DNA of 64,000 bases from Patescibacteria group bacterium (GTDB taxonomy: Bacteria; Patescibacteriota; Patescibacteriia; UBA1558; GWA2-36-10): contig JAQUKX010000001.1 in NCBI GenBank assembly GCA_028718865.1, forward strand, positions 67 through 64,066. Direction: 5' to 3'. A model generated the notes under the pieces. That model ran no database searches. It saw only the letters and a program-made list of their open reading frames with translations, and had not been told where the DNA came from. Of this stretch, positions 4,255 through 20,494 are shown piece by piece; the first letter of the stretch is position 1, and every line of letters begins with the position of its first letter. A program made the translations under genes and the position numbers.

Positions 4255-4785
4255 TTAGCGGACAACACTAATAGGATTTGTTGGAGCAGTGCCATAAGTA
4301 GTGCAGGCACCTACTGTTATTACTCCCGTAGAGCTTCTACTAAAATAATAACCTGTGCCTGTGCCTGCTACCAATGTGCCACCACCAGGATCTGTAGGAA
4401 TTTGACCAAGATAACCTTCATCTACCAAATCTTTCAAGTGTACAGAGGCTGTTGTAGTGGCATAACCTGAATTAGCAAAACCGCAATTATTATCAGCAGC
4501 TGCAAAACCATTTGTAATATGATAAATACCGCCATCGGCAACAGCTGCTCCAGTTGTCAGAGTTGTTGTTGGAGCAGAACCGCCATTGTCAGCCACATAC
4601 AGCGCCCAAGCGCTGGCAATAGAGGTCACATCAGCCCATCTCTGGGCATCATTGGCTTCACCAATACGACGAGCCGGGTTAATGGCCACAAAAGTAGCTC
4701 CTGCCAAAAGGGCAATAATAGCTACAACGATGATAAGTTCTATCAAAGTAAAACCTTTTTTATTAAAAGATTTTTTCATAATCAT
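4255..4785 (-). CDS. Type IV major pilin paralog 1 (class III signal peptide, prepilin-type N-terminal cleavage/methylation domain)
   Basis: MIMKKSFNKK-G|FTLIELIIVVAIIALLAGATFVA has Phe+1 and Glu+5. The C-terminal globular domain contains Cys. Confidence 0.85.
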   Translation of the reverse strand: MIMKKSFNKKGFTLIELIIVVAIIALLAGATFVAINPARRIGEANDAQRWADVTSIASAWALYVADNGGSAPTTTLTTGAAVADGGIYHITNGFAAADNNCGFANSGYATTTASVHLKDLVDEGYLGQIPTDPGGGTLVAGTGTGYYFSRSSTGVITVGACTTYGTAPTNPISVVR

Positions 4786-4811
4786 CTTTATTAATAATTT
4801 AGTTTATATTT

Positions 4812-5300
4812 TTAGCGGGTAACCTGAATAACTACGTTTTCATAACTAACACAAGCGCCTACTTTTATAACTCCATTGGCATCAGCGTATAAATAATAAC
4901 CCGTACTATCCGCTGTAAAACCGCCTAATGGATCAGATGGTATTGCTCCTAAATAACCTTCTGACACTAGAGTGCTCAAATCTAAATAAGCGTCGGTGGT
5001 GGTAGCATGTGGGGTGGCAACTGCGCAATGCGTAGAACCGCTTCCTCCACTAGTTATTTGATAAGTAGTGCCAGGATTAGCTACTGCCGGAGCAGTACCT
5101 CCTTCATCAGCCACATAAAGAGCCCAAGCGCTAGCAATAGAAGTCACATCCGCCCATCTTTGGGCATTATTGGCTTCACCGATACGACGAGCCGGGTTGA
5201 TAGCCACAAAAGTAGCACCTGCCAAGAGGGCAATGATAGCTACCACGATGATAAGCTCTATCAAAGTAAAGCCTTTATTTTTTTTCAAAATTTTTTTCAT
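4812..5300 (-). CDS. Type IV major pilin paralog 2
   Basis: The N-terminal ~60 aa are identical to paralog 1 (KGFTLIELIIVVAIIALLAGATFVAINPARRIGEAN…). The C-terminal half diverges. Confidence 0.85.
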   Translation of the reverse strand: MKKILKKNKGFTLIELIIVVAIIALLAGATFVAINPARRIGEANNAQRWADVTSIASAWALYVADEGGTAPAVANPGTTYQITSGGSGSTHCAVATPHATTTDAYLDLSTLVSEGYLGAIPSDPLGGFTADSTGYYLYADANGVIKVGACVSYENVVIQVTR

Positions 5301-5334
5301 TTTTCTATACTTAATAATTTATCTATAATATATT

Positions 5335-5814
5335 TTAACGCATGACTTCTATAGGACCGCCAGCATAAGCGCTGGTATAGCAAGCGCCTATTCTCAATAC
5401 TCCATCATCCATGCGCAGATAATAGGCAGTGCGCGGACTAGTGGTGGCCGGATCACTAGGTATCTGGCCAATATAGCCGCCACTAATCAAGGAGCTAAGG
5501 TCTAAATATTGAACAGTGCTGGTAGCATCAGTGCCGTCAACACAATGACTAACCGGACTGGGAGTAATTGCTCCTCTGATTTGATAAACAACACCCGAGC
5601 TTAGAGAGGCTGGAAGCTCTCCGTAATTATCAGTCACATAAAGAGCCCAGGCATTGGCTACAGCCGTGATGTCAGTCCATCTTTGGGCATCATTGGCTTC
5701 ACCAATACGCTTGGCTGGGTTGAGAGCCACAAAAGTAGCGCCCGCCAAGAGGGCAATAATGGCTACCACGATTATAAGTTCTATCAAAGTAAAACCCTGT
5801 CTTTGTTTAATCAT
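5335..5814 (-). CDS. Type IV major pilin paralog 3
   Basis: QGFTLIELIIVVAIIALLAGATFVALNPAKRIGEANDAQRW… has a conserved N-terminus and a divergent C-terminus. Confidence 0.85.
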   Translation of the reverse strand: MIKQRQGFTLIELIIVVAIIALLAGATFVALNPAKRIGEANDAQRWTDITAVANAWALYVTDNYGELPASLSSGVVYQIRGAITPSPVSHCVDGTDATSTVQYLDLSSLISGGYIGQIPSDPATTSPRTAYYLRMDDGVLRIGACYTSAYAGGPIEVMR

Positions 5815-5905
5815 AAAATATTAACAATTCCAAATTTATCCAAAATATATATAAATATCAAAAAGATTACAGACTGATTATAGCATATTTTACTTTTAGC
5901 GCCAA

Positions 5906-7681
5906 CTAATTGGGCAAAACAAGCTGAAAATTGAACAAAGCACCATCAGCCGAAACACTATAATTGAGCAACTCATAAGGCTGCTCGGTCAAACGATTCA
6001 AATCTCCAGCCAAAACTCTCCAGTCAGAATCTAGAACCAATAAATCGGCTAATTTCTCCCAAGAAAACACCAGAAACTGGTAACGAAAAGTAGCCAAGAC
6101 CGTGCTCTGGCCAATGACAAAATCATCTTCCTGGGGATTGGCTTGGACTATCTCATAATCCAAAACCAAAGGCGCCAGGCCGTATTTGCTTTTATCCACA
6201 TAGGCGTCCAGATTGCCCAGAACCTGGCTTCTAGCTTCCTGCTCCATCAAATCCATCAGCTCATAATAATCCGCTTGCGGGTCGCTTTTATATCTATTGA
6301 TACTCACATGATGATATTCTCCCAAAATAAAATTGCTCCGGCTATTGTCAGGATTGCTACCCACAGTAAAATTGAATTGACCGGACGTTGGCGCTGGCCT
6401 GACTGGCTGCTCTAGAGATGGCGCTGGCAACTGGACCAAAGGAGATTTGCTTTGGAAAATAGAATAAATATGATCGCGAAAAACCAAAAGCAAAATTGCC
6501 AAAAGCAGCAAAAGCAAAAAGGCAAAATTGCGCCTTCTCAGCAGCCGGCTTTTGGCTTTTGACCAAAAAGAATCCGCCTGCTTCTGATCATCTAGCTCTT
6601 CATCATCAGTCAAAGCCGAACTGCCTTTTGGCTGGTCGGGCTTAATAACAACAAAAGATAGCTCTGGTTTTTGGTAAGCCAAAACCGCCAAACCCAAAGC
6701 ATTGATATATTTGACAGCAGAGATATCCGAGGGCAAATCTCGACTGTCAATCAAACTGGAGCCGACATAAGCCGGCAAAGATAAATTTTCACCAAAGTAC
6801 TTATCCAAGCCTTTCATCTGAGCCAATCCTCCTATCAAAACCACCTGCTCTATCGGCGCCTGATTTTGGCTATTGTAGTAGGCAATAAAAATCTTGAGCT
6901 CGTCAGCCAAAGGCTGTAGCTGCCCTTGGATAACCAGCATGGTCTGACCATCATCTACAGCTGTCAAGCCAATATTTCTTTTTTTGTCTTCAGCTGTTGT
7001 ATAAGAAACCCCCAATCTGTTGACCAAGGCCTGATTAATGGCATTACCACCGATATTGATATTGATGCTTTCTCTGATGCCATTTTTATTAAAAATACTG
7101 GCAATAGTGGTGCGAGCTCCCAAATCCAAAAGCAAAGTAACGCTCTTTTTATAATCCCCGGCCAAGCCGACAAAAGAGCTGACTGCCTCCGGTACAATTG
7201 ACTCTATAGCCAAGCCCAGCTCGGCAAAGACAGCGGAAAAATCAGCCAGCACATCAGCCGGACAGGCAAAAAATAAAACTTCTTTATTGCCGTTTTTAGC
7301 TGGCAAAAATTTCAAAGCAATTTTCAGCTGATCAAAAGCATAGGGAACAAAACTCTCCGCTTGATTGTAAACCGCGCTGACAATTTCTTTTTCTTTGAGA
7401 TTTTTGGGCAGAGAAAAAACCTTGGAGAAAATTTTGGATTGAGGAATAGATATTATCACCTTATTGTATTTTTCCATTGAAGATAAGCTGGCATTTTTGA
7501 GTAATGCCGCCAGTGCTTCTTTGAGCCGTGCTCTGTCCAAAATCCTACCGTCCTCCACTATCTCGGGTGACAGCCGGAAGCGGGAATAAGTTTTGAGCTT
7601 AAAACCATTTTTTTTCTTATCCAAAACCACCGCTTCTATGGAAAAATCAGAAATATCAATGCCGATAATTTCTTTGGCCAT
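5906..7681 (-). CDS. pilM: PilM-like actin-fold pilus assembly ATPase fused to a TM segment and a PilN/PilO-like extracytoplasmic domain
   Basis: The N-terminus MAKEIIGIDISDFSIEAVVL… is a typical PilM/FtsA fold covering ~350 aa. It is followed by a basic stretch, a TM helix (FAFLLLLLLAILLLVF) and a ~200-aa C-terminal domain. Confidence 0.7.
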   Translation of the reverse strand: MAKEIIGIDISDFSIEAVVLDKKKNGFKLKTYSRFRLSPEIVEDGRILDRARLKEALAALLKNASLSSMEKYNKVIISIPQSKIFSKVFSLPKNLKEKEIVSAVYNQAESFVPYAFDQLKIALKFLPAKNGNKEVLFFACPADVLADFSAVFAELGLAIESIVPEAVSSFVGLAGDYKKSVTLLLDLGARTTIASIFNKNGIRESININIGGNAINQALVNRLGVSYTTAEDKKRNIGLTAVDDGQTMLVIQGQLQPLADELKIFIAYYNSQNQAPIEQVVLIGGLAQMKGLDKYFGENLSLPAYVGSSLIDSRDLPSDISAVKYINALGLAVLAYQKPELSFVVIKPDQPKGSSALTDDEELDDQKQADSFWSKAKSRLLRRRNFAFLLLLLLAILLLVFRDHIYSIFQSKSPLVQLPAPSLEQPVRPAPTSGQFNFTVGSNPDNSRSNFILGEYHHVSINRYKSDPQADYYELMDLMEQEARSQVLGNLDAYVDKSKYGLAPLVLDYEIVQANPQEDDFVIGQSTVLATFRYQFLVFSWEKLADLLVLDSDWRVLAGDLNRLTEQPYELLNYSVSADGALFNFQLVLPN

Positions 7682-7702
7682 AATAAATAATAATTTATAT
7701 CT

Positions 7703-8797
7703 TTATTCTACTACAGTTATATTCAAATACATAGAGTAGTCGCCAGCGTATTCGTAAGATCTGATAGAAAGCTCTCGGCTATAGCCTGCTCCTGGATCTT
7801 CCACACCTATGAGAAATCTGGTTTTGCCGGTCTTGTTGATATAAGCCAATTGGCCTGATGTCAGTTTATAAAAATACCAGCCGGCTGATAAAAAAGTGCC
7901 ATTGTGGATAATATGCCACTGACTACCGGAAAAAACCTGAATATAAAAAGTCTTGGTCGGTTGAGCGGTCTTGGGCGGAGCACCGGTAGTATAATCATGC
8001 AAATATAAATAAAGATCCGCTTCCAAGATAACTGCATCATCTGACAAAGCACTGGTATTGATATCAGCATAAGAAAAAGAAGTGACCGCTGGCTCAAAAA
8101 CGGCATTATAGGTTGCCAATAGCGTTGTGGCATCATCAACTGTTCCTTGAGTAGTGTGCACATACCAATCATCACTGCCAGCAGCTATCTGATAATCATA
8201 GATTGGACACTCGCCGCAATCCTCTGGACAAGTCTGGCAATTTTCCTCTCCATTACAGCTGGCATCGCCGCAATAAGCCGACGATACATAATCAGGCAAG
8301 GCTGCGCGAGCAGTGAGCTCTAGAGCTGTGCCATAGCTCTGGCAGGCGCCAAAGACAATCTGTCTATCCCCTTGACGGCTGATATAATAGCCCGAGTCTA
8401 GAGCTGATTCTTTGCTTGGATCAACTGGCAAGCTGGAGAGATAATTTGTTAAAAAATCACCACTGACCACTACGCAAGACAAGTTCTGACCGTCACAGCT
8501 CAAAGTCGCAGCACTGGAACATAATACCCGCTTTTCTCCTTGAGCCAAGTCTTCCAAATCAAAAAACTCCGGCAGCTCGTCATTGTCTAATTGATAAAGC
8601 TCTATAGCTCGAGAAATTCTGGCCAAGTCTTCGACTCTTTTGGCATCTTGGGCTTTGCCAATTTTATCTTCAGAATTGACTGATAAAAAGACTACTAGGG
8701 AAACAATAGCCAAAATCGCGACTGCCAATACCACCTCCATCAGTCCAAAGGCCTGGCGATTTTCAATTATTTTATTTTTCTTGCTATATTTTTTCAT
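7703..8797 (-). CDS. Minor pilin-like protein with a Cys-rich C-terminal region
   Basis: The N-terminus …RQA|FGLMEVVLAVAILAIV is prepilin-like with Glu+5 if cleaved after Ala. The C-terminus contains CGDASCNGEENCQTCPEDCGECP. Confidence 0.5.
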   Translation of the reverse strand: MKKYSKKNKIIENRQAFGLMEVVLAVAILAIVSLVVFLSVNSEDKIGKAQDAKRVEDLARISRAIELYQLDNDELPEFFDLEDLAQGEKRVLCSSAATLSCDGQNLSCVVVSGDFLTNYLSSLPVDPSKESALDSGYYISRQGDRQIVFGACQSYGTALELTARAALPDYVSSAYCGDASCNGEENCQTCPEDCGECPIYDYQIAAGSDDWYVHTTQGTVDDATTLLATYNAVFEPAVTSFSYADINTSALSDDAVILEADLYLYLHDYTTGAPPKTAQPTKTFYIQVFSGSQWHIIHNGTFLSAGWYFYKLTSGQLAYINKTGKTRFLIGVEDPGAGYSRELSIRSYEYAGDYSMYLNITVVE

Positions 8798-8806
8798 ATA
8801 TTTTAT

Positions 8807-9655
8807 TTATAAACATAAATTGGTACAGATAGTACAGCCTTGGCAATATGTTTCACGATTACAACCGACCGGAAAAGTATAACATTGATTGCCCGCGTCA
8901 CTTCCAGTATAATCACAAGTTTCATTTCTAGTAACATAGCCTGAGCAAGTGCTGTTGCAAAAATTGCCGTTCTGTACTATACCGTCTCCGCAAGAGCCGG
9001 CATTTTGTGGTGGATCGCAAACCTCTGGGGCTTGTACTGTACTATCACCGCAAGATCCCTCATAAGGCACGCCTGCCGTACAAGCCATCTCACAGGACTC
9101 ATTGCAGGAAAGAGCGCCTCCCAAAGAACAGCTCCATCCGGACAAGCCGCTGGGGTCAGCTGATCCGTCGCATTCCTCTGTTTGCTCATCCCAAACACCA
9201 TCGCCACAATAGCCGGCCGAACTAGCCGAGGCATAAGCTGATTGATCATTTTTGTAGCTATAGACTGAAATAGGCGTAGAAGAGACATTGATTGTGGCAA
9301 TAACCGAGCTTTGCCAAAAGCCAAGCGAAGAAGTACTGCTGGCTGAAAGCAAAACTTCTTTTAAGCCGGACATTATCTCAGTGGCAATTTCATAATCGCA
9401 GTCTATGCCTATCCCCGCCAAAGAAAAATAACCTGCTTCAGCATAATCCGATGATAAGCGCAGCAGAGCTTCATCCAAACAAGCTGCCAGCTTAGCCTCC
9501 ACCATCGCTCTTTCACTGATCTGATAATCTGCTTGGCTGTCGGAAATATTAATCAAAGAAATAGATACTGCTGCCAGAAGAGTAAGCGCTGTGATCATTA
9601 TCACCATTATCAAAGCAATTGCTCCTTGATTTTTTATTTTTATAAACTCAAGCAT
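8807..9655 (-). CDS. Minor pilin-like protein with Myxococcus-type cysteine-rich repeats (CGDGxxxxxEECD)
   Basis: The N-terminal hydrophobic segment QGAIALIMVIMITALTLLAAV lacks Glu+5. The C-terminus has CGDGVWDEQTEECDG … CGDGIVQNGNFCNSTC, matching the TIGR02232-type repeat from memory. Confidence 0.45.
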   Translation of the reverse strand: MLEFIKIKNQGAIALIMVIMITALTLLAAVSISLINISDSQADYQISERAMVEAKLAACLDEALLRLSSDYAEAGYFSLAGIGIDCDYEIATEIMSGLKEVLLSASSTSSLGFWQSSVIATINVSSTPISVYSYKNDQSAYASASSAGYCGDGVWDEQTEECDGSADPSGLSGWSCSLGGALSCNESCEMACTAGVPYEGSCGDSTVQAPEVCDPPQNAGSCGDGIVQNGNFCNSTCSGYVTRNETCDYTGSDAGNQCYTFPVGCNRETYCQGCTICTNLCL

Positions 9656-9679
9656 AAGTATATTTATTTGTTTATTTTA

Positions 9680-12970: not shown

Positions 12971-14029
12971 TTAATAATCTTTTAGACACCTGACCGACAG
13001 GCCGTAGCTCTTGTCCAAGTTGGCGCTGTTGAAATTAGCGTCGTTTTCATTGTAATAATAAACTGCCTGACTGCCGTCATACTGACTGGAAGTCCAAAAA
13101 AAAGCTTTGCTGCCATTATCGGCAAAAGCGCCGCCGCCACTAGTATTTCTCTGTCCGGCCAAAAGCAGATTGAATCCCGACTGGCCGCCTATAGCCAACT
13201 CATTGCCCGGCAAAGCATAAAGCCCGGCTAAGGCTGCCCATTGAGCGCTAGTGGGCAGATGCCAGCCGGCCGGACAAATGCCTCGGGCTCCTTCGCCAGT
13301 ACCATAAGCCATCAATTCATCCCAGCTATACAAACCGCCATAGATATCGCAATTAGCTTCGCTATTACCATAGCACCATTTTTCTAAAATATCATTATCA
13401 CTAGGATTACTTATAGCGCTTTCTAGCATCTGACCGCTATTGAGATTTTCCGCCAGCCAGCAATTGTCAGCTATTTCCACAGTATTATAAGCCTGACCTT
13501 GACTGTCATAGGCTTTGCTCTGGCCGCAGGTAAAAACATAAGCCAAGCCGCTGGGCAAAACCCGGACGCTTTTTTTCAGGCCAAAATTGCTCTCCAGAGC
13601 AATATCTTCCTCCTCACCGCTAGATAGCCAGCCGCTGCCAAAAGTAAAATAAAATTCCCGCTCCTGATTATCAGCCAAGTAAACGCCGGAATTGCGCTCG
13701 CCAAAATTCAATTGGCGATCAAAAGCACTATCCCTATCATCATAAAAATTGCCTTTGAACAAAATCAAACAATCCCCGTCCGACGAGCAATCGTCGCTCT
13801 GCGACAAAACCTTTATACCCCAGACATCGCCCATGTAGCCGCTGCGGGAATAATTCTGAGCGCGGCTGACAATGTCAGCTACTTCTCTGGCTTTGGCGTC
13901 AATATCATCTTCAAAAACTCGCGAATTCAAAACCGTAAAAGCGCCGGCCAAAATAATCAAAAAAACCGCTACTATCAAAAGCACTTCCACCAAAGTAAAG
14001 GCTCTTTGTTGTTTGCAAAAAAATATCAT
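12971..14029 (-). CDS. Pseudopilin with a Fibrobacter-succinogenes-major-paralogous-type domain (FISUMP, CPxGWHLP…W signature)
   Basis: N-terminus QQRA|FTLVEVLLIVAVFLIIL. The C-terminus contains CPAGWHLPTSAQWAAL, the hallmark of TIGR02145. Confidence 0.55.
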   Translation of the reverse strand: MIFFCKQQRAFTLVEVLLIVAVFLIILAGAFTVLNSRVFEDDIDAKAREVADIVSRAQNYSRSGYMGDVWGIKVLSQSDDCSSDGDCLILFKGNFYDDRDSAFDRQLNFGERNSGVYLADNQEREFYFTFGSGWLSSGEEEDIALESNFGLKKSVRVLPSGLAYVFTCGQSKAYDSQGQAYNTVEIADNCWLAENLNSGQMLESAISNPSDNDILEKWCYGNSEANCDIYGGLYSWDELMAYGTGEGARGICPAGWHLPTSAQWAALAGLYALPGNELAIGGQSGFNLLLAGQRNTSGGGAFADNGSKAFFWTSSQYDGSQAVYYYNENDANFNSANLDKSYGLSVRCLKDY

Positions 14030-15231
14030 TACCTTCCTAGTTCTCCGGTTAAATTATAAATTGGATTAATAATAGACATGGCGGCAAAGGCCACAGACAA
14101 GCCAATAATCACCAAAAGCACCGGCTCCAGCATAGTGGAAAGATTTTTGGTAATTACATCCACTTCATTTTCATAAAAATCCGCCAGATAATCCAAGGTC
14201 TCGCTCAGCTGTCCGGAATTCTCCCCTACTCGCGTCATCCGTGAAACCAGCGAGGGAAAATAAGAGCGGCCGGCCAAGGCATCAGCCAAAGACATGCCTT
14301 TGAGTATTTTGTGATAGACCAAAATCACCTCTCTTTTATAAACTTCGTTGCCAAGAGTCTGGGAAACTATCTGCAGAGCCCTGTCTATGCTGATACCGCT
14401 ATCCAGTAAAGATGCAATAGTGCGGCAAAACAAAGCCAAGTTCATCTGTCTGTCTAACTTGCCCAAAATAGGCAATCTTAAAATAAAGCTATGAATAAAA
14501 TAACGGCTATTTTTAAATTTAAGTAATATTTGCCAAGCTACAAATATTCCAAAAATAACCCCCAAAACCGCCAGCCAATTTTCCGCCATAAAACGGGATA
14601 TAACTATCATCATTCTAGTAGTCAAAGGCAAAGTCACATTGAGAGAATCAAAAAAGCCGATTATTTTGGGCAGAACATAAGCGGAAATCAAAGCTCCCAA
14701 GGCAATCACTGCCAGTAGTACCACTGTCGGATACATAGAGGCGGCCTTGAGCTTGCTTCTCAGTTCATAGGATTTTTTTTGCTGGCTAGCCACTATAGCC
14801 AAATTTTTGGCCAAAGTGCCGCCCTCTTCACCGACCGCTACCATGTTGATAAACATTTTATCAAAATCTTTGGGGTGCTTGGCCAGAGCCGCTGACAGCG
14901 AATGGCCCTTTCTGACATCAACCAAAACTTCATTAAGCCTTTTGTTGAGCACTGACGAAGAATTATCAGCCAGAGTTTCCAAAGCCGCGTCTATGGTCAT
15001 ACCTGCTTTTATCATCACTGACAAATGCTGCGCCAGCATTACTTTTTCCACCAGTCTTACTCGGCCTATTATTATACCGCCAGCCTTTTTTTTCTCACCA
15101 GCCATTTTCAGAGAAATCAGAGTACCGGGCTGCAAAGCCAAACGATTTCTAGCTTCTTTGGCGCTAGCTGCTTCTATGGTTCCTTGGCTGATTTTGCCTT
15201 GGCTGTCGCTTATTTGATAATGAAAAATCAT
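14029..15231 (-). CDS. pilC: Type IV pilus inner-membrane platform protein PilC (GspF family)
   Basis: 400 aa with two GspF repeats and three TM segments; GspF-family motifs are visible. Confidence 0.85.
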   Translation of the reverse strand: MIFHYQISDSQGKISQGTIEAASAKEARNRLALQPGTLISLKMAGEKKKAGGIIIGRVRLVEKVMLAQHLSVMIKAGMTIDAALETLADNSSSVLNKRLNEVLVDVRKGHSLSAALAKHPKDFDKMFINMVAVGEEGGTLAKNLAIVASQQKKSYELRSKLKAASMYPTVVLLAVIALGALISAYVLPKIIGFFDSLNVTLPLTTRMMIVISRFMAENWLAVLGVIFGIFVAWQILLKFKNSRYFIHSFILRLPILGKLDRQMNLALFCRTIASLLDSGISIDRALQIVSQTLGNEVYKREVILVYHKILKGMSLADALAGRSYFPSLVSRMTRVGENSGQLSETLDYLADFYENEVDVITKNLSTMLEPVLLVIIGLSVAFAAMSIINPIYNLTGELGR

Positions 15232-15243
15232 ATTTTATAAAAA

Positions 15244-16968
15244 TTATTGCTTAGTGGCTCTAAATATTTCTTCCAAAGTGGTTTTGCCGGAAATCGCCTT
15301 GTTGAAACCGTCTTCAAACATAGTGGTCATGCCATTTGCCATAGCTTTCTTTTTTATCTGATCAGCATCAGCTCTGGCCATGATTAGTTCTTTGATATCA
15401 TCGCTGATTTCCAAAACCTCAAAAATTCCAATACGGCCGCTGTAACCGCTTTGATTACAGCTATCGCAACCCTTGCCTTTATAGAATCTGATTTCTTTGA
15501 CTCTATCTACATCAAAAAACTTACTCAGATCAACTTCCGAGCTCAAATCACGGATTTCTTTTTCCGCCAACGTATAGCTGACTATGCATTTCATGCAGAT
15601 TTTTCTCAACAGTCTTTGGGCAATAATTACATTGACAGTAGACGAGACCAAAAAAGGCTCTACTTTCATGTCCAAAAGCCGCGGTAAGGCAGTAGCCGCA
15701 TCATTGGTATGGAGAGTGGACAAAACCAAGTGCCCAGTCATAGCCGAATTGACGGCAATGCCGGCTGTTTCCTTGTCTCTGATTTCTCCGACCATGATGA
15801 TGTCTGGATCTTGCCGGAGCAAAGACCGCAGTCCTTCGGCAAAAGTAAGGTTGGTCTTGGGATTGACCTGAATCTGATTGACGCCTTCCAGGTCATACTC
15901 CACTGGATCCTCGATTGTGCAAATATTGACATCGCGGCTATTGAGCAGCTTAATCAAAGCATACAAGCTAGTAGTTTTGCCCGAGCCTGTCGGACCAGTA
16001 GCCAATATCATGCCATAAGGCCGCTTGGCTGCCCGCTGGACTATCTTGAGGTCTTTTTCTACCATGCCCAAATCTTCCAAGCTGAATTGCTGGCCTTTGG
16101 AGGACAAAAGTCGCATGACCACTTTTTCGCCATGGGTAGTGGGTACAGCCGAAACACGGACATCTACTTTTTCCCCTTCCACAGTGGTGATGATTTTTCC
16201 ATCTTGAGCTGCCCGGCTTTCATCAGTCCTAAGATGAGCCAATATTTTTATTCTGGTAACAATCAAATCCAAAACTCCTTTGGGCAGAGACAAAACATCG
16301 TATAATATGCCGTCTATTCTGAATCTGATTTTTATTTCTTTTTCTTCGGGGTCAATATGGACATCGGAAGCATGGTTGCTATAAGCATAGCTAAACAGAT
16401 CGTCCACCAGCTTGACCGCTGACAGGCTCTCGGCCTCACCGCCTTGAGCTTTGATGGCTTGCTTCTGGATGCTGGCAGCATACTCCTGCTCAATTGATTT
16501 GCGGTAAAGGGAAAAATTATTTTCAATATCATAGACCGTGGCATAATAAGGCACGACTTTATCCCCGGCCTTTTTCTCCAGCATTTTTATCATCTGATAG
16601 TCAAAAGGATTGGCCATAGCCACCTTGATGCCTTCTTGATCCCTTTTGAAGACTATCATTTTCTGCTTGCGCGCCACTATTTCCGGCAAGAGATTGAGCA
16701 CCTCCGGCGGGATTTTTTCTTTTTTGAGATCGACGAATTTGACATGGAGATTATTGGCTATCAGCTGGCCGATCTCCTCTGATTTGATCAAATCCTGCTT
16801 GATCAAAAAAGTAGTAAAATCCTTTTTCTTTTCCTGAGCGGTTTTTATGGCCTGATCCAAAACCTCGGGCTTAATCAGTCCTATTTTGCTGATGATTTTA
16901 TAAATTTTGACGTCGCTTATAAGTTCCATAAAATTAACTTTCAATATTATTGGCCGGAATATGGCCAT
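15244..16968 (-). CDS. pilB: Type IV pilus assembly ATPase PilB (GspE family) with N-terminal T2SSE_N domain
   Basis: Walker A ATGPTGSGKTTSLYA, Asp box, Walker B and His box. A tetracysteine motif CMKC…CDSC is present. The true start may be M14 (MELISD) near 16929. Confidence 0.9.
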   Translation of the reverse strand: MAIFRPIILKVNFMELISDVKIYKIISKIGLIKPEVLDQAIKTAQEKKKDFTTFLIKQDLIKSEEIGQLIANNLHVKFVDLKKEKIPPEVLNLLPEIVARKQKMIVFKRDQEGIKVAMANPFDYQMIKMLEKKAGDKVVPYYATVYDIENNFSLYRKSIEQEYAASIQKQAIKAQGGEAESLSAVKLVDDLFSYAYSNHASDVHIDPEEKEIKIRFRIDGILYDVLSLPKGVLDLIVTRIKILAHLRTDESRAAQDGKIITTVEGEKVDVRVSAVPTTHGEKVVMRLLSSKGQQFSLEDLGMVEKDLKIVQRAAKRPYGMILATGPTGSGKTTSLYALIKLLNSRDVNICTIEDPVEYDLEGVNQIQVNPKTNLTFAEGLRSLLRQDPDIIMVGEIRDKETAGIAVNSAMTGHLVLSTLHTNDAATALPRLLDMKVEPFLVSSTVNVIIAQRLLRKICMKCIVSYTLAEKEIRDLSSEVDLSKFFDVDRVKEIRFYKGKGCDSCNQSGYSGRIGIFEVLEISDDIKELIMARADADQIKKKAMANGMTTMFEDGFNKAISGKTTLEEIFRATKQ

Positions 16969-17377
16969 TGCCGTTTCTGGCCTGCTTGCTCATAGTAGTG
17001 GAGTTGAGATAGCGGCTTATTTTCTCCACCAAAGTAGCCAAAGTAATATTATCTTTTACTAGATAATCCACTGCTCCCAAGTCTATGCCTTTTTTGACAT
17101 CATCTTCCTGGCCCAGATTGGACAAGATAATCACCGGTACGGCGGCGGTAGCCGGGTCACTGCGCAGCTCAGTCAAAACCTCAAAGCCGTTTTTCTCCGG
17201 CATTATCATATCCAAAATAATCAAATCTGGATCATTTATACGCGCCTGCTCCAAGCCTTCCTGGCCGTTGGCGGCCAAAAACACTTCATAGCCTCTTTCT
17301 GATAACTCGGCCTGATAGACTTTGCGCAAAAAATTGTCGTCATCTACAAAAAGAATTTTTGGTTTGCCTTCTGCCAT
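16934..17377 (-). CDS. Single-domain response regulator (CheY/PilH-like receiver)
   Basis: KILFVDDDNFLRKVY…ILDMIMPEKNGFEVL…KGIDLGAVDYLVK carries the phospho-acceptor Asp and the conserved Lys. Confidence 0.8.
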   Translation of the reverse strand: MAEGKPKILFVDDDNFLRKVYQAELSERGYEVFLAANGQEGLEQARINDPDLIILDMIMPEKNGFEVLTELRSDPATAAVPVIILSNLGQEDDVKKGIDLGAVDYLVKDNITLATLVEKISRYLNSTTMSKQARNGNGHIPANNIES

Positions 17378-17383
17378 AAAAAT

Positions 17384-18934
17384 CTAAAATAAATTATTAA
17401 TATCTAATACCAGCACTGGCCGGCCTTTGGAAGAAATAGCCGCGCCTTTGAAATATTTCTGCCCTAGCATGACGCTGGGAGTTTTTTTCATCACCAATTC
17501 GCTTTCGGAAATATTGCCATAAACCGGCAAGGCCAATTTTAACTTGCCTCTTTTGACCAGCAAAAGATAACGATAAGAGGCCGGCAAATTTTGTTTCAGA
17601 GCCAAACGATCCAATAGCTTGACTGAGAAAACATGATTGTCGTGCCGAAAAGTCTTGGTTTGAGAAAAATCCTTTTCCTGCTCCAGCTTGACTACCTTAT
17701 CCACATAAGCCAAAGGCAAAGCCAGCCGATAATCTTTGATTCTGATTATAAGAGCCCGAAAAACCGACAAAGGCAGAGGAAAATCCACGACGAATTTGGC
17801 GCCTTTGCCTTTTTCGCTCACTATATCAATACTGCCGCTTAGCTCTTCCACTTTGCTTTTGACCAAATTGAGGCCTATGCCCCGGCCCGAGCTGAAGGTG
17901 AGGCCTATGCCTTTGGAAATACCGGCAACAAAAATCAAATTTTTGATTTCCGCTATGGTCATTTTTTTGGCTTTTACCGGACTGACTATTTTGTTTTTGA
18001 CTGCCAAAGATAATATTTCCTGCCAATCTATGCCTTGGCCATTGTCAGACACACTGATTATCATCCTATCGTCTCTAAGAGCAGTTGACAGCACTATCCG
18101 GCCGTTTAGCTGTCCTTTGGCTATGCCGTGGGCTGCCGCATTTTTGAGCAGCTGTATGACTATTTCCATCAACTCATCAAGTATCGCCTTATCCAAAGAA
18201 AAATCATTGTCTTCAATTACCAACTCTATTTTTTTGCCTTCAGCGTTGGCGATTTCTCTGACCAAATAAGGCAAAGAGGAAAAAACCTGCTTCAAGGGTA
18301 CTATTCTGATTTTCTCCAAATCACGCCGCATATCCCCTAGGATCTTCTCTGCTGCCAAATATTTGGCCAAAAATCCCGTATCACCGCTTTTTTCCGCCAA
18401 AAGCTTGGTTTCCAAAATATTTATCAGCAGATCTTCCAAATAATTTTGGATTTTATCCAGCTTGTAAGTAGGCACGGTAATTTCCGCTACTGACGGCAGG
18501 CTGCTCAAGATGTGTTTTTCTTTGACGGTTTTTTTATCGGCCTTGGTTTTTTTGGCTTTGACGCTCAAGAAATCCGCTAGACGCTGGCTTTGCCCCAGCA
18601 GATTGATTTCTCGATTTTTTTTGTCTATGGATTCAATATTTTGTTTGAGAATATCTAGGGTAGAAAAAAACAATTCCAAGCCTTTTTTGTCCAGCTTGAT
18701 ATCGCCGCTATAAGCGCTGTCAATGATATTTTCCAAAAGATGTAGCAGTTTGACGGTTTTTTTGTAGGCCATGGCCGCGGCCGCGCCCTTCATAGAGTGA
18801 ATCAAGCGAAAAATATTTTCTATCAAATTCTGATTTTGAGGCTTTTTTTCCAGATAAAGCAAAAATGTAGAGAGTTTTTTTAACTGCTCCCGACTGGTAG
18901 AGAGATAAAGGTCTTTGTATTTACTGCTGATCAT
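17384..18934 (-). CDS. CheA-like histidine kinase (HPt, HATPase_c and C-terminal CheW-like domain)
   Basis: The HPt motif is IHSMKGAAAAM. The G1/G2 boxes are VSDNGQGID and GRGIGL. The C-terminal ~130 aa are a CheW-like beta-barrel. Confidence 0.75.
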   Translation of the reverse strand: MISSKYKDLYLSTSREQLKKLSTFLLYLEKKPQNQNLIENIFRLIHSMKGAAAAMAYKKTVKLLHLLENIIDSAYSGDIKLDKKGLELFFSTLDILKQNIESIDKKNREINLLGQSQRLADFLSVKAKKTKADKKTVKEKHILSSLPSVAEITVPTYKLDKIQNYLEDLLINILETKLLAEKSGDTGFLAKYLAAEKILGDMRRDLEKIRIVPLKQVFSSLPYLVREIANAEGKKIELVIEDNDFSLDKAILDELMEIVIQLLKNAAAHGIAKGQLNGRIVLSTALRDDRMIISVSDNGQGIDWQEILSLAVKNKIVSPVKAKKMTIAEIKNLIFVAGISKGIGLTFSSGRGIGLNLVKSKVEELSGSIDIVSEKGKGAKFVVDFPLPLSVFRALIIRIKDYRLALPLAYVDKVVKLEQEKDFSQTKTFRHDNHVFSVKLLDRLALKQNLPASYRYLLLVKRGKLKLALPVYGNISESELVMKKTPSVMLGQKYFKGAAISSKGRPVLVLDINNLF

Positions 18935-19365
18935 AAGCCCAATTGCTCAAAAATTTTCTCCGGCTCCAAAATATAAAATTTTTCCTTATTATGCTTGATA
19001 TAATTTTTAAAAATCTTAGCTTTGGCATCTTTGAAAACCTGACGGATTTTTATTATCTGACCGCCTTCATCAACTGCCAGCGCAAACAATTCTTCTTCTT
19101 TTTTGAAAACTAGATAAAGCTCGGACTGGGTTTTGGTTTTGCCCGACAATAGCTGATGACCAGACAAAACAGTGATCAACTGGCCGTTTTGGTAAGCCAA
19201 GCCAAGCACTATAGGCAGCAAAGCTGGCAAAGGCAATACCCTGTCATAGCGGACAAAAGAAAGAGTTGCTGGCAAAGGCATCAGATACCAAGCTCCGGAA
19301 ATAGCAAAGGAAATATATTTTTTATCTGCTGGCGGCATTCTATTTTCTTTCTCCCAATAAATCAT
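18931..19365 (-). CDS. CheW-like coupling protein
   Basis: 144 aa with the CheW pattern YISFAISGAWYLMPLPATLSFVRY … LAVDEGGQIIKI. The real start is probably M10. Confidence 0.6.
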   Translation of the reverse strand: MIYWEKENRMPPADKKYISFAISGAWYLMPLPATLSFVRYDRVLPLPALLPIVLGLAYQNGQLITVLSGHQLLSGKTKTQSELYLVFKKEEELFALAVDEGGQIIKIRQVFKDAKAKIFKNYIKHNKEKFYILEPEKIFEQLGL

Positions 19366-20494
19366 CCAGAGATTTGACCACTTCTGTCAAAGCAAAAGAA
19401 GAGCGATTGAGTGCCCTAGTTACCACTAACTGGCGATGGACTATGGTAGTAACATCATCGGTTTTTTGCACCATAGCCTTGGCTTCTTTGCTGATGTTTT
19501 TGATCATTGCTGAGATATTTTCCGCTCCGGCCTTACTCTGGCTGCTTTCTTTGTCTATTGTCTTGATGTCTTTGGACAGAACAGAAATATCGCCAAGAAT
19601 ATTATTCAAAAACACCAGAGTTTCTCCCAGCACGCGGATGCTTTTTTCCGTTTCCTTCCACTCATAGACTGACGACTGCCGCGCCTGCTTTATCTGCCTT
19701 TGCATATCCGAAGCCAGAAGATCTACGCCGGCGGCGGCCTGCTTGCTGCTAGCATTGAGCTCGCGGATTTGCGCCACCAAAGAAGAAAATTCCTCACTGA
19801 AGTCTGTTTTATTGGCTTCTATAGAGACATTGAGGCTCAAAAAGCGAGCCAAATCCGCCAAAGCTGACATTTTTTCCGCCAATTCCCTGGTTTTGACTGT
19901 ATAGTTATCAAGAGCTTGGTTTAATTTTTGGTTTTCCGTTGCCAGATTTTTTATCAGCACCAGGCCATCTAGCGCTGCCTGGGAACGCTTGGCTCCTTCA
20001 CTGGCCGACTGATCAATATTACTGCTATAGGCAGCCGAGCTCTGAGTTTTTTTGCTGATTTTTTTCAAAGAAGAAGCCAGAGATACCACGGCGCTATTTC
20101 CTTCTTTTATCCCCCTTTCCTGCTCTTGGCTGCTTAGAAGTAAAAATCCTGACAATTGGCTGCTGCTTTGGCTGATGTCAGACAGGCTTTGGATTGATTT
20201 GAAAAGCTCATCAGTCACTTTGAGAAGTTCAGCAGCTGATTTTTGAATAGGCTTGACAATCACCCGCGCCAGGCGCCGAGCTGCAATCAAGGAAAACATA
20301 AAAACCAGAGCTAGAGAAATCAAAACTCCGAAAATTATCGCCTGCCGCAAGCCAACATCAACGATCAGCGAAGAATCTTTTTCAAAAAAATAAACGGCAA
20401 CAAATAGGCCGCAAAGAGGCAACAAAGAAACCAGAATAAACCAGGAAATAAATTTGAAATAAATTTTGGTTTCAAATAGTTTCACAAAAATCAA
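19340..20494 (-). CDS. Methyl-accepting chemotaxis protein-like transducer (two TMs plus a coiled-coil signalling domain)
   Basis: Two N-terminal TM helices are followed by a Ser/Gln/Ala-rich coiled coil with the MCP signalling-domain character (…EGNSAVVSLASSLKKISKKTQSSAAYSSNIDQSASEGAKRSQAALDG…). Confidence 0.6.
   Translation of the reverse strand: MIFVKLFETKIYFKFISWFILVSLLPLCGLFVAVYFFEKDSSLIVDVGLRQAIIFGVLISLALVFMFSLIAARRLARVIVKPIQKSAAELLKVTDELFKSIQSLSDISQSSSQLSGFLLLSSQEQERGIKEGNSAVVSLASSLKKISKKTQSSAAYSSNIDQSASEGAKRSQAALDGLVLIKNLATENQKLNQALDNYTVKTRELAEKMSALADLARFLSLNVSIEANKTDFSEEFSSLVAQIRELNASSKQAAAGVDLLASDMQRQIKQARQSSVYEWKETEKSIRVLGETLVFLNNILGDISVLSKDIKTIDKESSQSKAGAENISAMIKNISKEAKAMVQKTDDVTTIVHRQLVVTRALNRSSFALTEVVKSLDDLLGERK

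What the first reader, a model, noticed from the sequence alone, without database searches (positions are those of the whole stretch)
4255..20494. Contiguous ~16 kb type IV pilus super-operon with an embedded chemosensory (Pil-Chp-like) signalling module in a likely CPR-type genome
Fifteen co-oriented, tightly packed minus-strand genes run in this order: MCP-like transducer, CheW, CheA (HPt plus kinase plus CheW domain), CheY-like receiver, PilB, PilC, five minor pilin-like genes, a PilM-PilN fusion and three major pilins. Spacing is tight (several overlapping stop/start pairs), so the chemosensory genes look co-transcribed with the pilus machinery. In model proteobacteria the Pil-Chp system is encoded apart from the pilus structural genes. 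Here a complete chemosensory pathway is physically fused to the pilus operon. That suggests sensory control of pilus extension, which would matter for host attachment or DNA uptake. No secretin gene is present, which fits a monoderm envelope. PilT and PilD are not in the window.
Basis: partly seen in the sequence, partly recalled or inferred. Interest (0 to 1): 0.75.

Follow-up and report, generated by a model that had tools for sequence, protein, structure and literature searches.

The report
Pilus operon with built-in chemosensory relay
In one group of ultra-small, host-dependent "CPR" bacteria, a stripped-down chemotaxis-type signalling relay always sits in the same tightly packed gene cluster as the type IV pilus machinery, which suggests these flagellum-less cells steer or gate their pili with a sensory circuit that public annotation has mostly missed.

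Summary
Fifteen co-oriented minus-strand genes (20485 to 4255) encode MCP, CheW, CheA, CheY, PilB, PilC, five minor pilin-like proteins, a long PilM and three major pilins. From MCP to PilM the gaps run from -26 to +24 nt. A strong hairpin closes the cluster and a promoter-like site opens it. The source is an NCBI Patescibacteria MAG in which only CheW carries a chemotaxis name.

The module is not a Pil-Chp (Tfp-class) homologue. CheA is P2-less with a single Hpt and no fused receiver. The MCP has no sensor domain, no HAMP and no methylation consensus. CheR, CheB, CheC and CheD are absent from the window. The module scores most like F1-type systems.

Twenty-seven non-redundant related loci (CheA 39-61% identical) keep the same order wherever the flank allows: PilB 21/21, PilC 20/20, MCP+CheW 18/18, CheY 23/23.

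These CheAs form a small long-branch clade next to a larger CPR-wide CheA family with CheB/CheC/CheD. That family is also sometimes placed directly upstream of PilB-PilC. A still more reduced variant (kinase + CheY + PilB only) exists.

Best reading: a minimal phosphorelay dedicated to the pilus motor. The coupling is inferred from synteny, not shown. I rate it a new variant of a known kind, interest about 0.6.

The parts
20495..20634 (-). Divergent intergenic region holding the likely operon promoter: extended -10 TGTTATAAT at 20537-20529, about 44 nt upstream of the GTG start. The + strand carries a perfect TTGACA-18-TATAAT (20580-20609) for the sugar-transferase gene.
   Evidence: Sequence read; + strand site. 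The minus-strand -10 is my reading of the sequence and was not found by the tool.
19340..20485 (-). Sensor-less MCP (381 aa from GTG 20485). It has two TM helices joined by a loop of about 14 aa, no HAMP, and a hairpin coiled coil of about 310 aa (44H-like length). Tip residues N222, E226, K229, F236 and R244 are invariant.
18931..19365 (-). CheW adaptor (144 aa). It overlaps the MCP stop by 26 nt and the CheA start by 4 nt.
   Evidence: NCBI name: chemotaxis protein CheW
17384..18934 (-). CheA kinase with layout P1(Hpt, H46 in HSMKG)-linker-P3-P4-P5. It has no P2 domain and no fused receiver.
16934..17377 (-). Stand-alone CheY-type receiver (147 aa). D12, D13, D56, S86, Y105 and K108 are invariant across orthologues.
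15244..16929 (-). PilB/GspE-family assembly ATPase (561 aa) with an MshEN N-terminal domain. Its start lies 4 nt after the CheY stop.
14029..15231 (-). PilC/GspF platform protein (400 aa).
12971..14029 (-). Modular minor pilin 1: prepilin motif AFTLVE plus a Fib_succ_major domain.
10987..12966 (-). Modular minor pilin 2: GFSLME plus DUF2341 plus a Laminin_G_3 (ConA-like lectin) domain.
9680..10990 (-). Modular minor pilin 3: GFTLVE plus Laminin_G_3.
8807..9655 (-). Pilin-like protein 4. It has a hydrophobic N-terminal helix but no E5 or cleavage motif, 20 Cys and no Pfam hit. Its position is conserved in related loci.
7703..8797 (-). Minor pilin 5: AFGLME, weak N_methyl, 10 Cys.
5906..7681 (-). 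Long PilM (591 aa). It has a PilM actin-like fold (1-340), a disordered linker, a TM helix (about 372-410) and a confident external alpha/beta domain (430-591) of unknown family.
5877..5905 (-). Promoter-like site (TTGGCG-17-TATAAT preceded by TG) in the 91-nt gap before the first pilin gene.
5335..5814 (-). Major pilin paralogue 1 (159 aa, GFTLIE).
4812..5300 (-). Major pilin paralogue 2 (162 aa).
4255..4785 (-). Major pilin paralogue 3 (176 aa).
4198..4225 (-). 13-bp perfect GC-rich hairpin (dG -28.6 kcal/mol, z -4.2) 30 nt after the last pilin stop: the likely operon terminator. It is followed by a TTGGCA-18-TATAAT site (4195-4166) for the HlyD/ABC/MacB operon.

Best explanation
This is a single operon of about 16 kb from a Parcubacteria-type CPR bacterium. 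A minimal chemotaxis-type phosphorelay is transcribed together with, and dedicated to, a monoderm type IV pilus machine.

Proposed mechanism:
1. The sensor-less transmembrane MCP forms a complex with CheW and the P5 domain of CheA and controls CheA autophosphorylation on His46.
2. The phosphoryl group passes to Asp56 of the stand-alone CheY.
3. CheY~P acts by protein-protein contact on the cytoplasmic face of the pilus motor (PilB, PilC or the PilM domain). This gates when, or where, pili carrying lectin-like tip pilins are extended.

The MCP has only a variable external loop of about 14 residues and no methylation sites. The input is therefore more likely a membrane- or pilus-borne cue (pilin pool, pilus load, contact) than a soluble ligand, and adaptation by CheR/CheB is absent.

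In evolutionary terms the module is a streamlined offshoot of an F1-like chemosensory system that is widespread in CPR.

Shown here: gene identities, intact catalytic residues, operon-like packing, strict conservation of the arrangement, and the relationship to the larger CPR CheA family.

Inferred: co-transcription, the direction of signal flow, the CheY target and the nature of the stimulus.
For: Domain assignments.

CheA:
- It aligns to T. maritima CheA P3-P5 from residue 156 (3.7e-41).
- The AlphaFold model shows P1, a disordered linker at 130-153 with no P2, then P3, P4 and P5. Its top Foldseek hit is 1b3q at 9.5e-29.
- H46, the N-box N265 and H269, G1 (D297, G299, G301) and G2 (G350, R351, G352, G354) are invariant in 20 homologues.

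CheY: D12, D13, D56, S86, Y105 and K108 are invariant.

Operon structure:
- Gaps from MCP to PilM run from -26 to +24 nt.
- A terminator hairpin follows the last pilin.
- Related loci have similar spacing, with the CheW/CheA overlap conserved at 8-11 nt.

Synteny in 27 non-redundant loci with CheA 39-61% identical: PilB 21/21, PilC 20/20, MCP+CheW 18/18, CheY 23/23.

Family relationships:
- Group-1 CheA is monophyletic (100/100) and joins the CPR-wide CheA family (97/100) in an NJ tree.
- That larger family also sits directly upstream of PilB-PilC in about 5 of 11 loci. One example is L062: MCP-CheY-CheW-...-CheB-CheA-CheC/X-CheD-PilB-PilC-pilins.
- A reduced variant keeps only kinase-CheY-PilB-PilC, which points to kinase to CheY to pilus motor as the conserved core.

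Precedent: phosphorylated PixG binds PilB1 and PilC in Synechocystis (PMC11181946).

No flagellar genes occur in the window or in any of the loci. CPR papers report no flagella (PMC7143001, PMC11809585).
Against: - There are no transcript, protein-interaction or phenotype data. Everything about function rests on gene order.
- Conserved order within one clade can partly reflect shared descent.
- In cyanobacteria the single-domain CheY (PixH) does not bind the pilus motor. Binding needs a PATAN domain (PMC11181946), which this CheY lacks.
- PilT and PilD are not in the window, so pilus dynamics cannot be assessed.
- About half of the related group-2 CPR Che clusters are not next to pilus genes.
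- In Myxococcus the pilus and PilB act upstream of a Che-like system (PMC5544727), so signal flow could run the other way.
- The window MCP itself scores below the Pfam gathering cut-off.
Confidence: 0.6

Rival explanations
1. Dif-like logic. The pilus is the input rather than the output. The sensor-less MCP reads pilus or PilB state, and CheY~P (or CheA) controls something else. The most plausible target is the surface-glycan machinery encoded divergently next door (Bac_transf, flippase, Wzy_C proteins).
For: - The MCP has no ligand-binding domain, and its external loop is variable while its N-terminal juxtamembrane motif is invariant.
- Bac_transf lies divergently upstream of the MCP in the window and in nearly all group-1 loci with enough flank.
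- In M. xanthus the T4P and PilB act upstream of the DifA/DifC/DifE complex to regulate exopolysaccharide (PMC5544727).
Against: - The glycan genes are on the opposite strand and in a separate transcription unit. The Che genes share tight or overlapping junctions with pilB.
- Locus L010 keeps Che-T4P without Bac_transf.
- The reduced L065 variant has lost the MCP and CheW but keeps kinase-CheY-PilB. That is hard to reconcile with the MCP being the pilus sensor.
Confidence: 0.15
2. The filament is not a motility or adhesion pilus. It is a non-retractile competence or secretion-type pseudopilus (DNA or substrate uptake), and the relay gates uptake rather than attachment or taxis.
For: - No PilT paralogue is present in 64 kb or within 10 kb of any related locus.
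- PilB scores equally for GspE (534.9) and PilB (526.8) models, and PilC scores best for GspF.
- CPR pili have been proposed to take up DNA (PMC7143001).
- The TM7x T4P-2 locus also lacks PilT and does not drive motility (PMC12206443).
Against: - There are three major pilin paralogues and large lectin-like or adhesin-like minor pilins: Laminin_G_3, DUF2341 and Fib_succ_major.
- A PilM-type protein is present.
- No ComEA or ComEC genes lie in the cluster.
- PilT could lie elsewhere, as pilus genes are often scattered.
- This rival changes the role of the filament, not the coupling to the relay.
Confidence: 0.15
3. Inherited neighbourhood without a functional link. The Che-like genes are a relic or serve an unrelated target, and they sit next to pilB only because gene order is frozen in this clade.
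For: - Group 1 is a narrow family, with only 6 clusters at 50% identity.
- Flanking genes such as Bac_transf are also conserved, which shows general synteny.
- Several group-2 Che clusters stand alone.
Against: - All catalytic and phospho-acceptor residues are invariant across proteins only 40-60% identical, so the relay is under selection.
- Stop/start overlaps with neighbouring genes are conserved.
- The same Che-PilB junction occurs in a second, distantly related CPR family (CheA 25-31% identical) with different flanks.
- Reduced genomes rarely keep four useless genes.
- No alternative CheY target is evident.
Confidence: 0.1

Closest known systems
Pil-Chp system of Pseudomonas aeruginosa (Tfp class of chemosensory systems; PilJ, PilI, ChpA, PilG, PilH, PilK, ChpB)
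   Same: It is a chemotaxis-type MCP/CheW/CheA/CheY relay whose presumed job is to control type IV pilus extension, and it works through stand-alone receivers.
   Different: - ChpA is a giant hybrid kinase with multiple Hpt-type domains and a C-terminal receiver. Here CheA is 516 aa with one Hpt and no receiver.
- Pil-Chp has two receivers (PilG, PilH) plus CheR and CheB homologues. Here there is one CheY and no CheR or CheB.
- PilJ has a large periplasmic domain. Here the external loop is about 14 aa.
- Pil-Chp genes are encoded apart from pilB/pilC and pilMNOPQ (own knowledge). Here they share one operon.
- By sequence this system is closer to F1-type CheA.
Cyanobacterial Tax systems (e.g. 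Synechocystis Tax1: PixJ, PixI, PixL, PixG, PixH)
   Same: A Che-like relay controls T4P-based movement in a cell without flagella. The phosphorylated regulator binds PilB1 and PilC directly (PMC11181946), which is the mechanism proposed here.
   Different: - The motor-binding regulator is a PATAN-REC protein. The single-domain REC (PixH) does not bind the motor (PMC11181946).
- PixL is a hybrid kinase with a C-terminal receiver.
- The receptors carry photosensory domains.
- The genes are not fused to the pilus assembly operon.
F1-class chemotaxis systems (Firmicutes, Thermotogae, Archaea), including archaeal che clusters next to archaellum operons
   Same: - The best profile match of this CheA is haloarchaeal CheA.
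- The best solved matches are T. maritima CheA and the 44H receptor Tm1143.
- The sister CPR family carries CheB, CheC/X and CheD, as F1 systems do.
- In archaea, F1 che genes also sit beside genes of a type IV filament, the archaellum (own knowledge).
   Different: - F1 systems normally include a P2 domain in CheA, CheR/CheB, CheC/CheD and receptors with methylation sites. They drive a rotary flagellum or archaellum through FliM or CheF.
- All of these are missing here, and the neighbour is an assembly-type T4P.
- Class membership could not be tested with the published class HMMs.
Dif chemosensory system of Myxococcus xanthus (DifA, DifC, DifE, DifD)
   Same: It has a minimal MCP/CheW/CheA/CheY core that is genetically tied to the T4P and to PilB and linked to surface polysaccharide (PMC5544727). 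DifA also lacks a sizeable periplasmic domain (own knowledge).
   Different: Dif is encoded away from the pil genes, its output is exopolysaccharide and DifD is a phosphate sink. It also has DifG (CheC) and DifB. No sequence-level relationship was tested here.
Type IV pili of Saccharibacteria (TM7x T4P-1 and T4P-2) and modular minor pilins of Streptococcus sanguinis
   Same: - They are monoderm-type T4P without a secretin in a CPR cell.
- They have large, poorly conserved pilins.
- One TM7x locus also lacks PilT and serves host binding (PMC12206443).
- Lectin-type modules grafted on minor pilins resemble the S. sanguinis modular pilins (own knowledge).
   Different: No chemosensory genes are reported in the TM7x loci, and that paper lists regulation of extension and retraction as an open question (PMC12206443). 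PilM, PilN and PilO are separate genes there. Here a single long PilM carries the TM segment and the external domain.

Membership tests
Chemotaxis-type signalling core (MCP-CheW-CheA-CheY) | CheA with an Hpt (P1) phospho-acceptor His, dimerisation domain (P3), HATPase (P4) with N/G1/F/G2 boxes, and a CheW-like P5 | tested here: met
   Pfam finds Hpt, HATPase_c and CheW. P3-P5 align to T. maritima CheA at 3.7e-41. The model shows a P3 helical hairpin at 156-210, with a Foldseek hit to 1b3q at 9.5e-29. H46 and the box residues are invariant. Pfam H-kinase_dim itself gave no hit.
Chemotaxis-type signalling core (MCP-CheW-CheA-CheY) | Receptor with the MCP signalling hairpin and conserved tip | tested here: met
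   The window protein scores 28.9 bits against a cut-off of 34.6. However, 8/8 orthologues hit MCPsignal, best 1.4e-11, and the profile hits PcaY and Tm1143 at about 1e-11. The tip residues equivalent to Tsr N381, E385, F396 and R404 are invariant (the mapping to Tsr is my own).
Chemotaxis-type signalling core (MCP-CheW-CheA-CheY) | Stand-alone receiver with the D-D-D-T/S-K quintet and an aromatic switch residue | tested here: met
   D12, D13, D56, S86, Y105 and K108 are invariant in 10 sequences. Response_reg scores 89 bits. No subfamily-specific signature was found.
Chemotaxis-type signalling core (MCP-CheW-CheA-CheY) | Methylation-based adaptation (CheR, CheB, methylation consensus in the receptor) | tested here: not met
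   No CheR or CheB was found in the 64-kb window or in the related group-1 loci. No strict methylation consensus was found in 8/8 MCPs. Whole genomes could not be scanned.
Pil-Chp / Tfp class | Hybrid ChpA-type kinase (several Hpt-like domains and a C-terminal receiver) | tested here: not met
   One Hpt and no receiver in 516 aa. All 66 full-length group-1 homologues found (P0001-P0066, 472-523 aa, most 509-523) have the same domain content.
Pil-Chp / Tfp class | Two CheY-like regulators (PilG and PilH) plus PilK (CheR) and ChpB (CheB) | tested here: not met
   There is a single receiver gene between cheA and pilB, and no CheR or CheB.
Pil-Chp / Tfp class | Assignment by the class-specific HMMs of Wuichet and Zhulin / MiST | not testable with these tools
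   The class models are not in any available library. Indirect evidence points to F1-like affinity.
F1 class chemosensory system | CheA with a P2 domain; CheC, CheD, CheB and CheR accessory genes; 44H receptors | tested here: inconclusive
   The receptor length fits 44H: a C-arm of 154 aa equals 22 heptads (my count). The best matches are F1-type proteins. However, P2 and all accessory genes are absent here. The sister CPR family has CheB, CheC/X and CheD but also lacks P2.
Type IV pilus (type IV filament) assembly system | PilB/GspE ATPase, PilC/GspF platform, and class III signal-peptide pilins with G/A-F-x-x-x-E | tested here: met
   T2SSE scores 443.9 bits and T2SSF 204.3 bits. Seven of eight pilin-like proteins carry the motif, and N_methyl hits are found.
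Type IV pilus (type IV filament) assembly system | Prepilin peptidase PilD and retraction ATPase PilT | tested here: not met
   Neither is in the window or within 10 kb in related loci. They may be encoded elsewhere; this was not testable genome-wide.
PilM-PilN fusion | PilM actin-like domain followed by a PilN-type TM segment and a periplasmic ferredoxin-like domain | tested here: inconclusive
   The PilM fold is confirmed: PilM_2 at 118.5 bits and Foldseek 5eou at 1.3e-25. The TM helix at 372-410 and a confident external domain at 430-591 were modelled. The C-terminal part matches no Pfam or NCBIfam model, and its fold could not be searched separately.
Candidate Phyla Radiation / Patescibacteria genome | Source assignment and the CPR ribosomal-protein signature (no L30) | tested here: met
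   The exact proteins are NCBI 'Patescibacteria group bacterium' MDD5749169-173 and MDD5749206 on a 137,949-bp contig. S5 and L15 are adjacent with an 18-nt gap and no L30. That CPR lack L30 is from my own knowledge.

The most novel reading that the evidence does not exclude
Some ultra-small CPR bacteria carry a self-contained pilus 'reflex arc'. A receptor with no ligand-binding domain, built into the pilus operon, senses the state of the pilus or membrane (load, contact, pilin pool). Through CheA and CheY it feeds back directly on PilB. This would give flagellum-less epibionts a way to perform directed, contact- or gradient-guided twitching toward hosts.

The three forms found here would then be a reduction series that shows which parts of a chemosensory array are dispensable:
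1. The full F1-like system with T4P.
2. The four-gene core with T4P.
3. The kinase-CheY pair with T4P.
Probability: 0.25. Interest if true: 0.8.

Novelty: new variant of a known kind. Interest (0 to 1): 0.6.

Why it matters
Patescibacteria make up a large share of bacterial diversity, and all cultivated members live attached to host cells. Type IV pili are essential for motility and host binding in the few strains studied.

How extension and retraction are regulated is explicitly listed as an open question (PMC12206443). Genome papers commonly state that CPR lack chemotaxis (PMC11974145, PMC11809585, PMC7143001).

This locus, and the roughly 27 non-redundant relatives found here, show that one CPR clade hard-wires a minimal chemosensory relay to its pilus genes. 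A broader CPR-wide Che family is often placed the same way.

If the coupling is real, three things follow:
- It gives a concrete, testable candidate for how epibionts decide when and where to deploy pili.
- It offers a very small natural chemosensory core (sensor-less 44H-length receptor, P2-less CheA, no adaptation) for structural work.
- It shows that annotation pipelines miss these genes. In the source record the MCP is named 'hypothetical protein' and CheA 'ATP-binding protein'.

Tried and rejected
- **Exact look-up of the window CheA.** The contig index found nothing. The source was identified instead through cluster look-ups.
- **tRNA and Rfam scans.** Both were empty across the window, so there is no RNA element or integration site to explain the cluster.
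- **Genome-contig scan.** A single CheA query gave only two useful loci. The alignment-based metagenome scan was needed.
- **Pil-Chp membership.** Considered and rejected on domain architecture and gene content.
- **Mobile island or phage-borne cluster.** GC content (0.41-0.45) matches the flanks, no integrase or repeats were seen in the ORFs scanned, and the r-protein operon lies on the same contig. This was not pursued further.
- **C-terminal half of PilM.** I tried to classify it by structure search. Foldseek hits were dominated by the PilM/FtsA/MreB fold of the N-terminal half, so the PilN question stays open.
- **CheY subfamily.** PDB and NCBIfam searches gave only generic receiver hits, with no subfamily signal.
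- **Terminator and promoter scan.** It returned many weak intragenic hits (57 promoter-like against 34 expected; 34 terminator-like against 17 expected). I used only the intergenic ones. The tool missed the strong hairpin at 4198-4225 because its U-tract is interrupted.
- **Literature.** Eight full-text searches found no paper describing a Che-T4P cluster in CPR. The only passing mention of chemotaxis and twitching genes is in Peribacteria (PMC4736985). Subscription-only papers were not searched.
- **Antisense ORFs.** Those inside pilB and cheA (for example 15709-16305 and 17736-18269) were treated as chance.

Full report
**1. What is there**

The minus strand between 20485 and 4255 carries 15 consecutive genes. 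Profile searches give the following:

| Coordinates | Assignment |
|---|---|
| 19340-20485 | MCP |
| 18931-19365 | CheW |
| 17384-18934 | CheA-type kinase (Hpt, HATPase_c, CheW-like) |
| 16934-17377 | Stand-alone receiver |
| 15244-16929 | PilB/GspE ATPase with an MshEN domain |
| 14029-15231 | PilC/GspF platform |
| 12971-14029, 10987-12966, 9680-10990, 8807-9655, 7703-8797 | Five pilin-like proteins |
| 5906-7681 | 591-aa PilM |
| 5335-5814, 4812-5300, 4255-4785 | Three paralogous pilins of 159-176 aa |

Seven of the eight pilin-like proteins carry the G/A-F-x-x-x-E prepilin motif. The 8807-9655 product has only a hydrophobic N-terminal helix and 20 cysteines. Three minor pilins carry large grafted modules: Fib_succ_major, DUF2341 plus Laminin_G_3, and Laminin_G_3.

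The weakest assignment is the MCP, at 28.9 bits against a Pfam cut-off of 34.6. It is secured in three ways:
- All eight orthologues hit MCPsignal, best 1.4e-11.
- A family profile hits the solved receptors PcaY and Tm1143 at about 1e-11.
- The hairpin-tip residues are invariant.

**2. Operon structure**

Gaps from MCP to PilM are -26, -4, 6, 4, 12, -1, 4, -4, 24, 9 and 21 nt.

- The 140-nt region upstream of the MCP is AT-rich. It holds an extended -10 (TGTTATAAT, 20537-20529; my reading), back to back with a perfect sigma-70 consensus for the divergent sugar-transferase gene.
- A 91-nt gap before the first pilin gene holds a promoter-like site with an extended -10 (5905-5877). The pilins may therefore be transcribed both by read-through and on their own.
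- Thirty nucleotides after the last pilin stop lies a perfect 13-bp GC-rich hairpin (-28.6 kcal/mol, z -4.2).
- Next comes a near-consensus promoter for the HlyD/ABC/MacB genes.

Co-transcription of the chemosensory and pilus genes is therefore well supported by sequence, but it has not been demonstrated.

**3. Source**

The exact proteins are NCBI entries MDD5749169-173 and MDD5749206, from a 137,949-bp contig of a 'Patescibacteria group bacterium' MAG.

The ribosomal-protein operon at the far end of the window runs L22-S3-L16-L14-L5-S8-L6-L18-S5-L15-SecY-Adk-Map. There is no room for L30 between S5 and L15, which is a CPR hallmark (own knowledge).

In that record only CheW carries a chemotaxis name. 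The MCP is 'hypothetical protein', CheA is 'ATP-binding protein' and PilB is 'GspE/PulE family protein'.

**4. Anatomy of the signalling module**

*CheA (516 aa).*
- P1 is a four-helix bundle with His46 in HSMKG.
- A disordered Lys-rich linker spans 130-153, and there is no P2 domain.
- P3 is a helical hairpin at 156-210.
- P4 has N, G1, F and G2 boxes, and P5 follows.
- Supporting evidence: the sequence alignment to T. maritima CheA (3.7e-41), the AlphaFold model (pLDDT 77.9), the Foldseek top hit 1b3q (9.5e-29) and the invariant residues.

*MCP.*
- It has two TM helices joined by a variable loop of about 14 residues and no HAMP hit.
- Its cytoplasmic hairpin has a C-arm of 154 residues, which equals 22 heptads. 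The overall length therefore matches the 44H class, whose solved example Tm1143 is the best single-sequence PDB hit.
- None of eight orthologues has the strict methylation consensus.
- The most conserved part outside the tip is an N-terminal juxtamembrane motif (K10, Y12, F15, I16, W18, F19, numbered on the 384-aa TTG-start ORF used; subtract 3 for the 381-aa GTG-start protein).

*CheY.* The acidic pocket, D56, S86, the aromatic switch Y105 and K108 are all invariant.

*Missing genes.* No CheR, CheB, CheC/X, CheD, CheZ or CheV gene is in the window.

**5. It is not Pil-Chp**

Four features argue against the Tfp class: the single-Hpt, receiver-less CheA; the single CheY; the absence of CheR and CheB; and the sensor-less receptor.

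The best NCBIfam model for CheA is the haloarchaeal (F1-type) CheA at 249.7 bits. The E. coli type scores 151.9. The class-specific HMMs were not available, so 'F1-derived' remains an inference.

**6. Conservation**

CheA searches found a compact family of about 66 clusters at 90% identity, all close to 516 aa and named Patescibacteria, Parcubacteria or Komeilibacteria (lineage). In the 50% library only six representatives score 610-752 bits, and the next hit scores 476 or less.

An alignment-based metagenome scan, combined with phmmer annotation of all fetched loci, gave 27 non-redundant loci with CheA 39-61% identical to the window. Wherever the flank suffices:

| Gene | Loci that keep it / loci with enough flank |
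|---|---|
| PilB | 21/21 |
| PilC | 20/20 |
| MCP + CheW | 18/18 |
| CheY | 23/23 |

The minor pilins, the long PilM and the pilins follow in the same order. Precomputed gene calls show the same tight spacing, including a conserved 8-11-nt CheW/CheA overlap.

**7. A wider pattern**

The same scan pulled in a second set of loci, with CheA 25-31% identical.

- One of them, L062, reads MCP(dCache_1)-CheY-CheW-x-REC-CheY-CheB-CheA-CheC/X-CheD-PilB-PilC-pilins.
- This 'group 2' CheA is also P2-less. Its family is large and CPR-wide: Uhrbacteria, Magasanikbacteria, Wolfebacteria, Pacebacteria and Parcubacteria.
- It is directly followed by PilB-PilC in about 5 of 11 loci with enough flank. Elsewhere it stands alone.
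- In an NJ tree, group 1 is monophyletic (100/100) on a long branch. Groups 1 and 2 together separate from the sampled non-CPR CheAs (97/100). Caveats: simple distances and a biased outgroup sample.
- A third form (L065, and likewise L064, L066 and L084) has lost the MCP, CheW and the P5 domain. It keeps a roughly 300-aa Hpt-kinase, a CheY with a zinc ribbon, PilB and PilC.

The series suggests progressive streamlining around a conserved axis of kinase to CheY to pilus motor.

**8. Mechanism**

The most economical reading is a phosphorelay whose output, CheY~P, acts on PilB, PilC or PilM to gate pilus extension. The receptor would read a membrane- or pilus-borne cue, not a soluble ligand.

- Precedent for direct regulator-motor contact exists in Synechocystis, where phosphorylated PixG binds PilB1 and PilC. 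There, however, the contact runs through a PATAN domain that is absent here (PMC11181946).
- The opposite flow, from pilus or PilB to the Che system to surface glycan as in the Myxococcus Dif pathway (PMC5544727), is a serious rival. The receptor is sensor-less, and glycan genes (Bac_transf, flippase, Wzy_C) are conserved next door.
- The lack of PilT in the window and the related loci leaves open whether the filament retracts. The TM7x T4P-2 locus, which also lacks PilT, serves host binding and not motility (PMC12206443).

**9. PilM**

The model (pLDDT 86.1) shows four parts:
- a PilM fold (Foldseek 5eou, 1.3e-25);
- a disordered acidic linker;
- a long TM helix;
- a confident 160-aa external alpha/beta domain.

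The architecture is conserved in about 60 homologues. It resembles a covalent PilM-PilN (or GspL-like) arrangement, but homology of the external part was not shown.

**10. Novelty**

Eight full-text searches found no description of a chemosensory-pilus cluster in CPR.

- Papers either state that CPR lack chemotaxis (PMC11974145, PMC11809585, PMC7143001) or list 'chemotaxis' and 'twitching' genes in passing (PMC4736985).
- Regulation of CPR pili is named as an open question (PMC12206443).
- The search covers only open-access papers and preprints, so an existing description elsewhere cannot be excluded.

The principle that chemosensory systems control T4P is well known. Four things are new here: the fused operon, the minimal composition, the lineage and the reduction series. 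I rate it a new variant of a known kind, with interest 0.6.

Noticed in passing
L041-L063, L068, L092, L093 (e.g. L062:122-16658): A second, much larger CPR-wide CheA family (Uhrbacteria, Magasanikbacteria, Wolfebacteria, Pacebacteria and others) carries CheB, CheC/X, CheD and dCache-type MCPs. In about 5 of 11 loci it is directly followed by PilB-PilC-pilins. This contradicts the common statement that CPR lack chemotaxis genes.
   Followed up: partly
L065:9881-14551 (also L064, L066, L084): A further-reduced variant. CheA is shortened to about 300 aa (Hpt plus kinase, no P5), and there is no MCP and no CheW. It is still followed by CheY-PilB-PilC.
   Followed up: partly
L002:11569-12240, L006:11569-12243, L065:10890-11549: In some lineages the CheY upstream of PilB carries a C-terminal extension of about 90 aa that ends in a zinc ribbon (CPSCG...CPSCG; Pfam Zn_Ribbon_1). 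This could be an output or docking module.
   Followed up: partly
window 20635-24500 (+), 39345-41528 (-); L006:3644-7582, L008:6204-8318, L009:3948-8304: Bac_transf, an epimerase, a Polysacc_synt flippase and Wzy_C (+TPR) O-antigen-ligase-like genes are conserved next to the MCP gene in nearly all related loci. Known pilin O-glycosyltransferases (PilO/TfpO, PglL) are Wzy_C proteins (own knowledge) and the pilins are Ser/Thr-rich, so this may be a pilin-glycosylation or surface-glycan partner locus.
   Followed up: no
window 24000-36000: GC content drops to 0.30-0.35, against 0.40-0.46 elsewhere. The stretch holds glycosyltransferases, SAM methyltransferases, a polysaccharide deacetylase and an AsnB-like amidotransferase. 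It may be a laterally acquired surface-glycan island.
   Followed up: no
window 56816-57997: Ribosomal protein genes S5 and L15 are separated by 18 nt with no L30 gene, which is the CPR signature. The operon order from L22 to Map is otherwise standard.
   Followed up: yes
window 42861-46418 and 47371-49249: A 1185-aa ORF has no Pfam match. Next to it lies an ECF sigma factor (48692-49249) followed by a DUF5667 protein (47371-48708), which could be a sigma/anti-sigma pair.
   Followed up: no
window 19340-20485 (residues 10-19 of the TTG-start ORF): The most conserved part of the MCP outside the hairpin tip is an N-terminal juxtamembrane motif (K-x-Y-x-x-F-I-x-W-F), whereas the external loop is variable. 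This hints that the input is sensed at the membrane face and not outside the cell.
   Followed up: no
window 461-4121: Directly downstream of the pilus operon lies a HlyD-type adaptor, an ABC ATPase and a MacB/FtsX permease, with their own near-consensus promoter (4195-4166). A tripartite-efflux-type adaptor is unexpected in a cell thought to lack an outer membrane.
   Followed up: no
window 8807-9655 and 7703-8797: The two small 'minor pilin' genes next to PilM encode very Cys-rich proteins (20 and 10 Cys) with repeated C-x-x-C-like spacing. The first lacks the prepilin cleavage motif, like GspK/PilX-type or TM7x PilX proteins.
   Followed up: no
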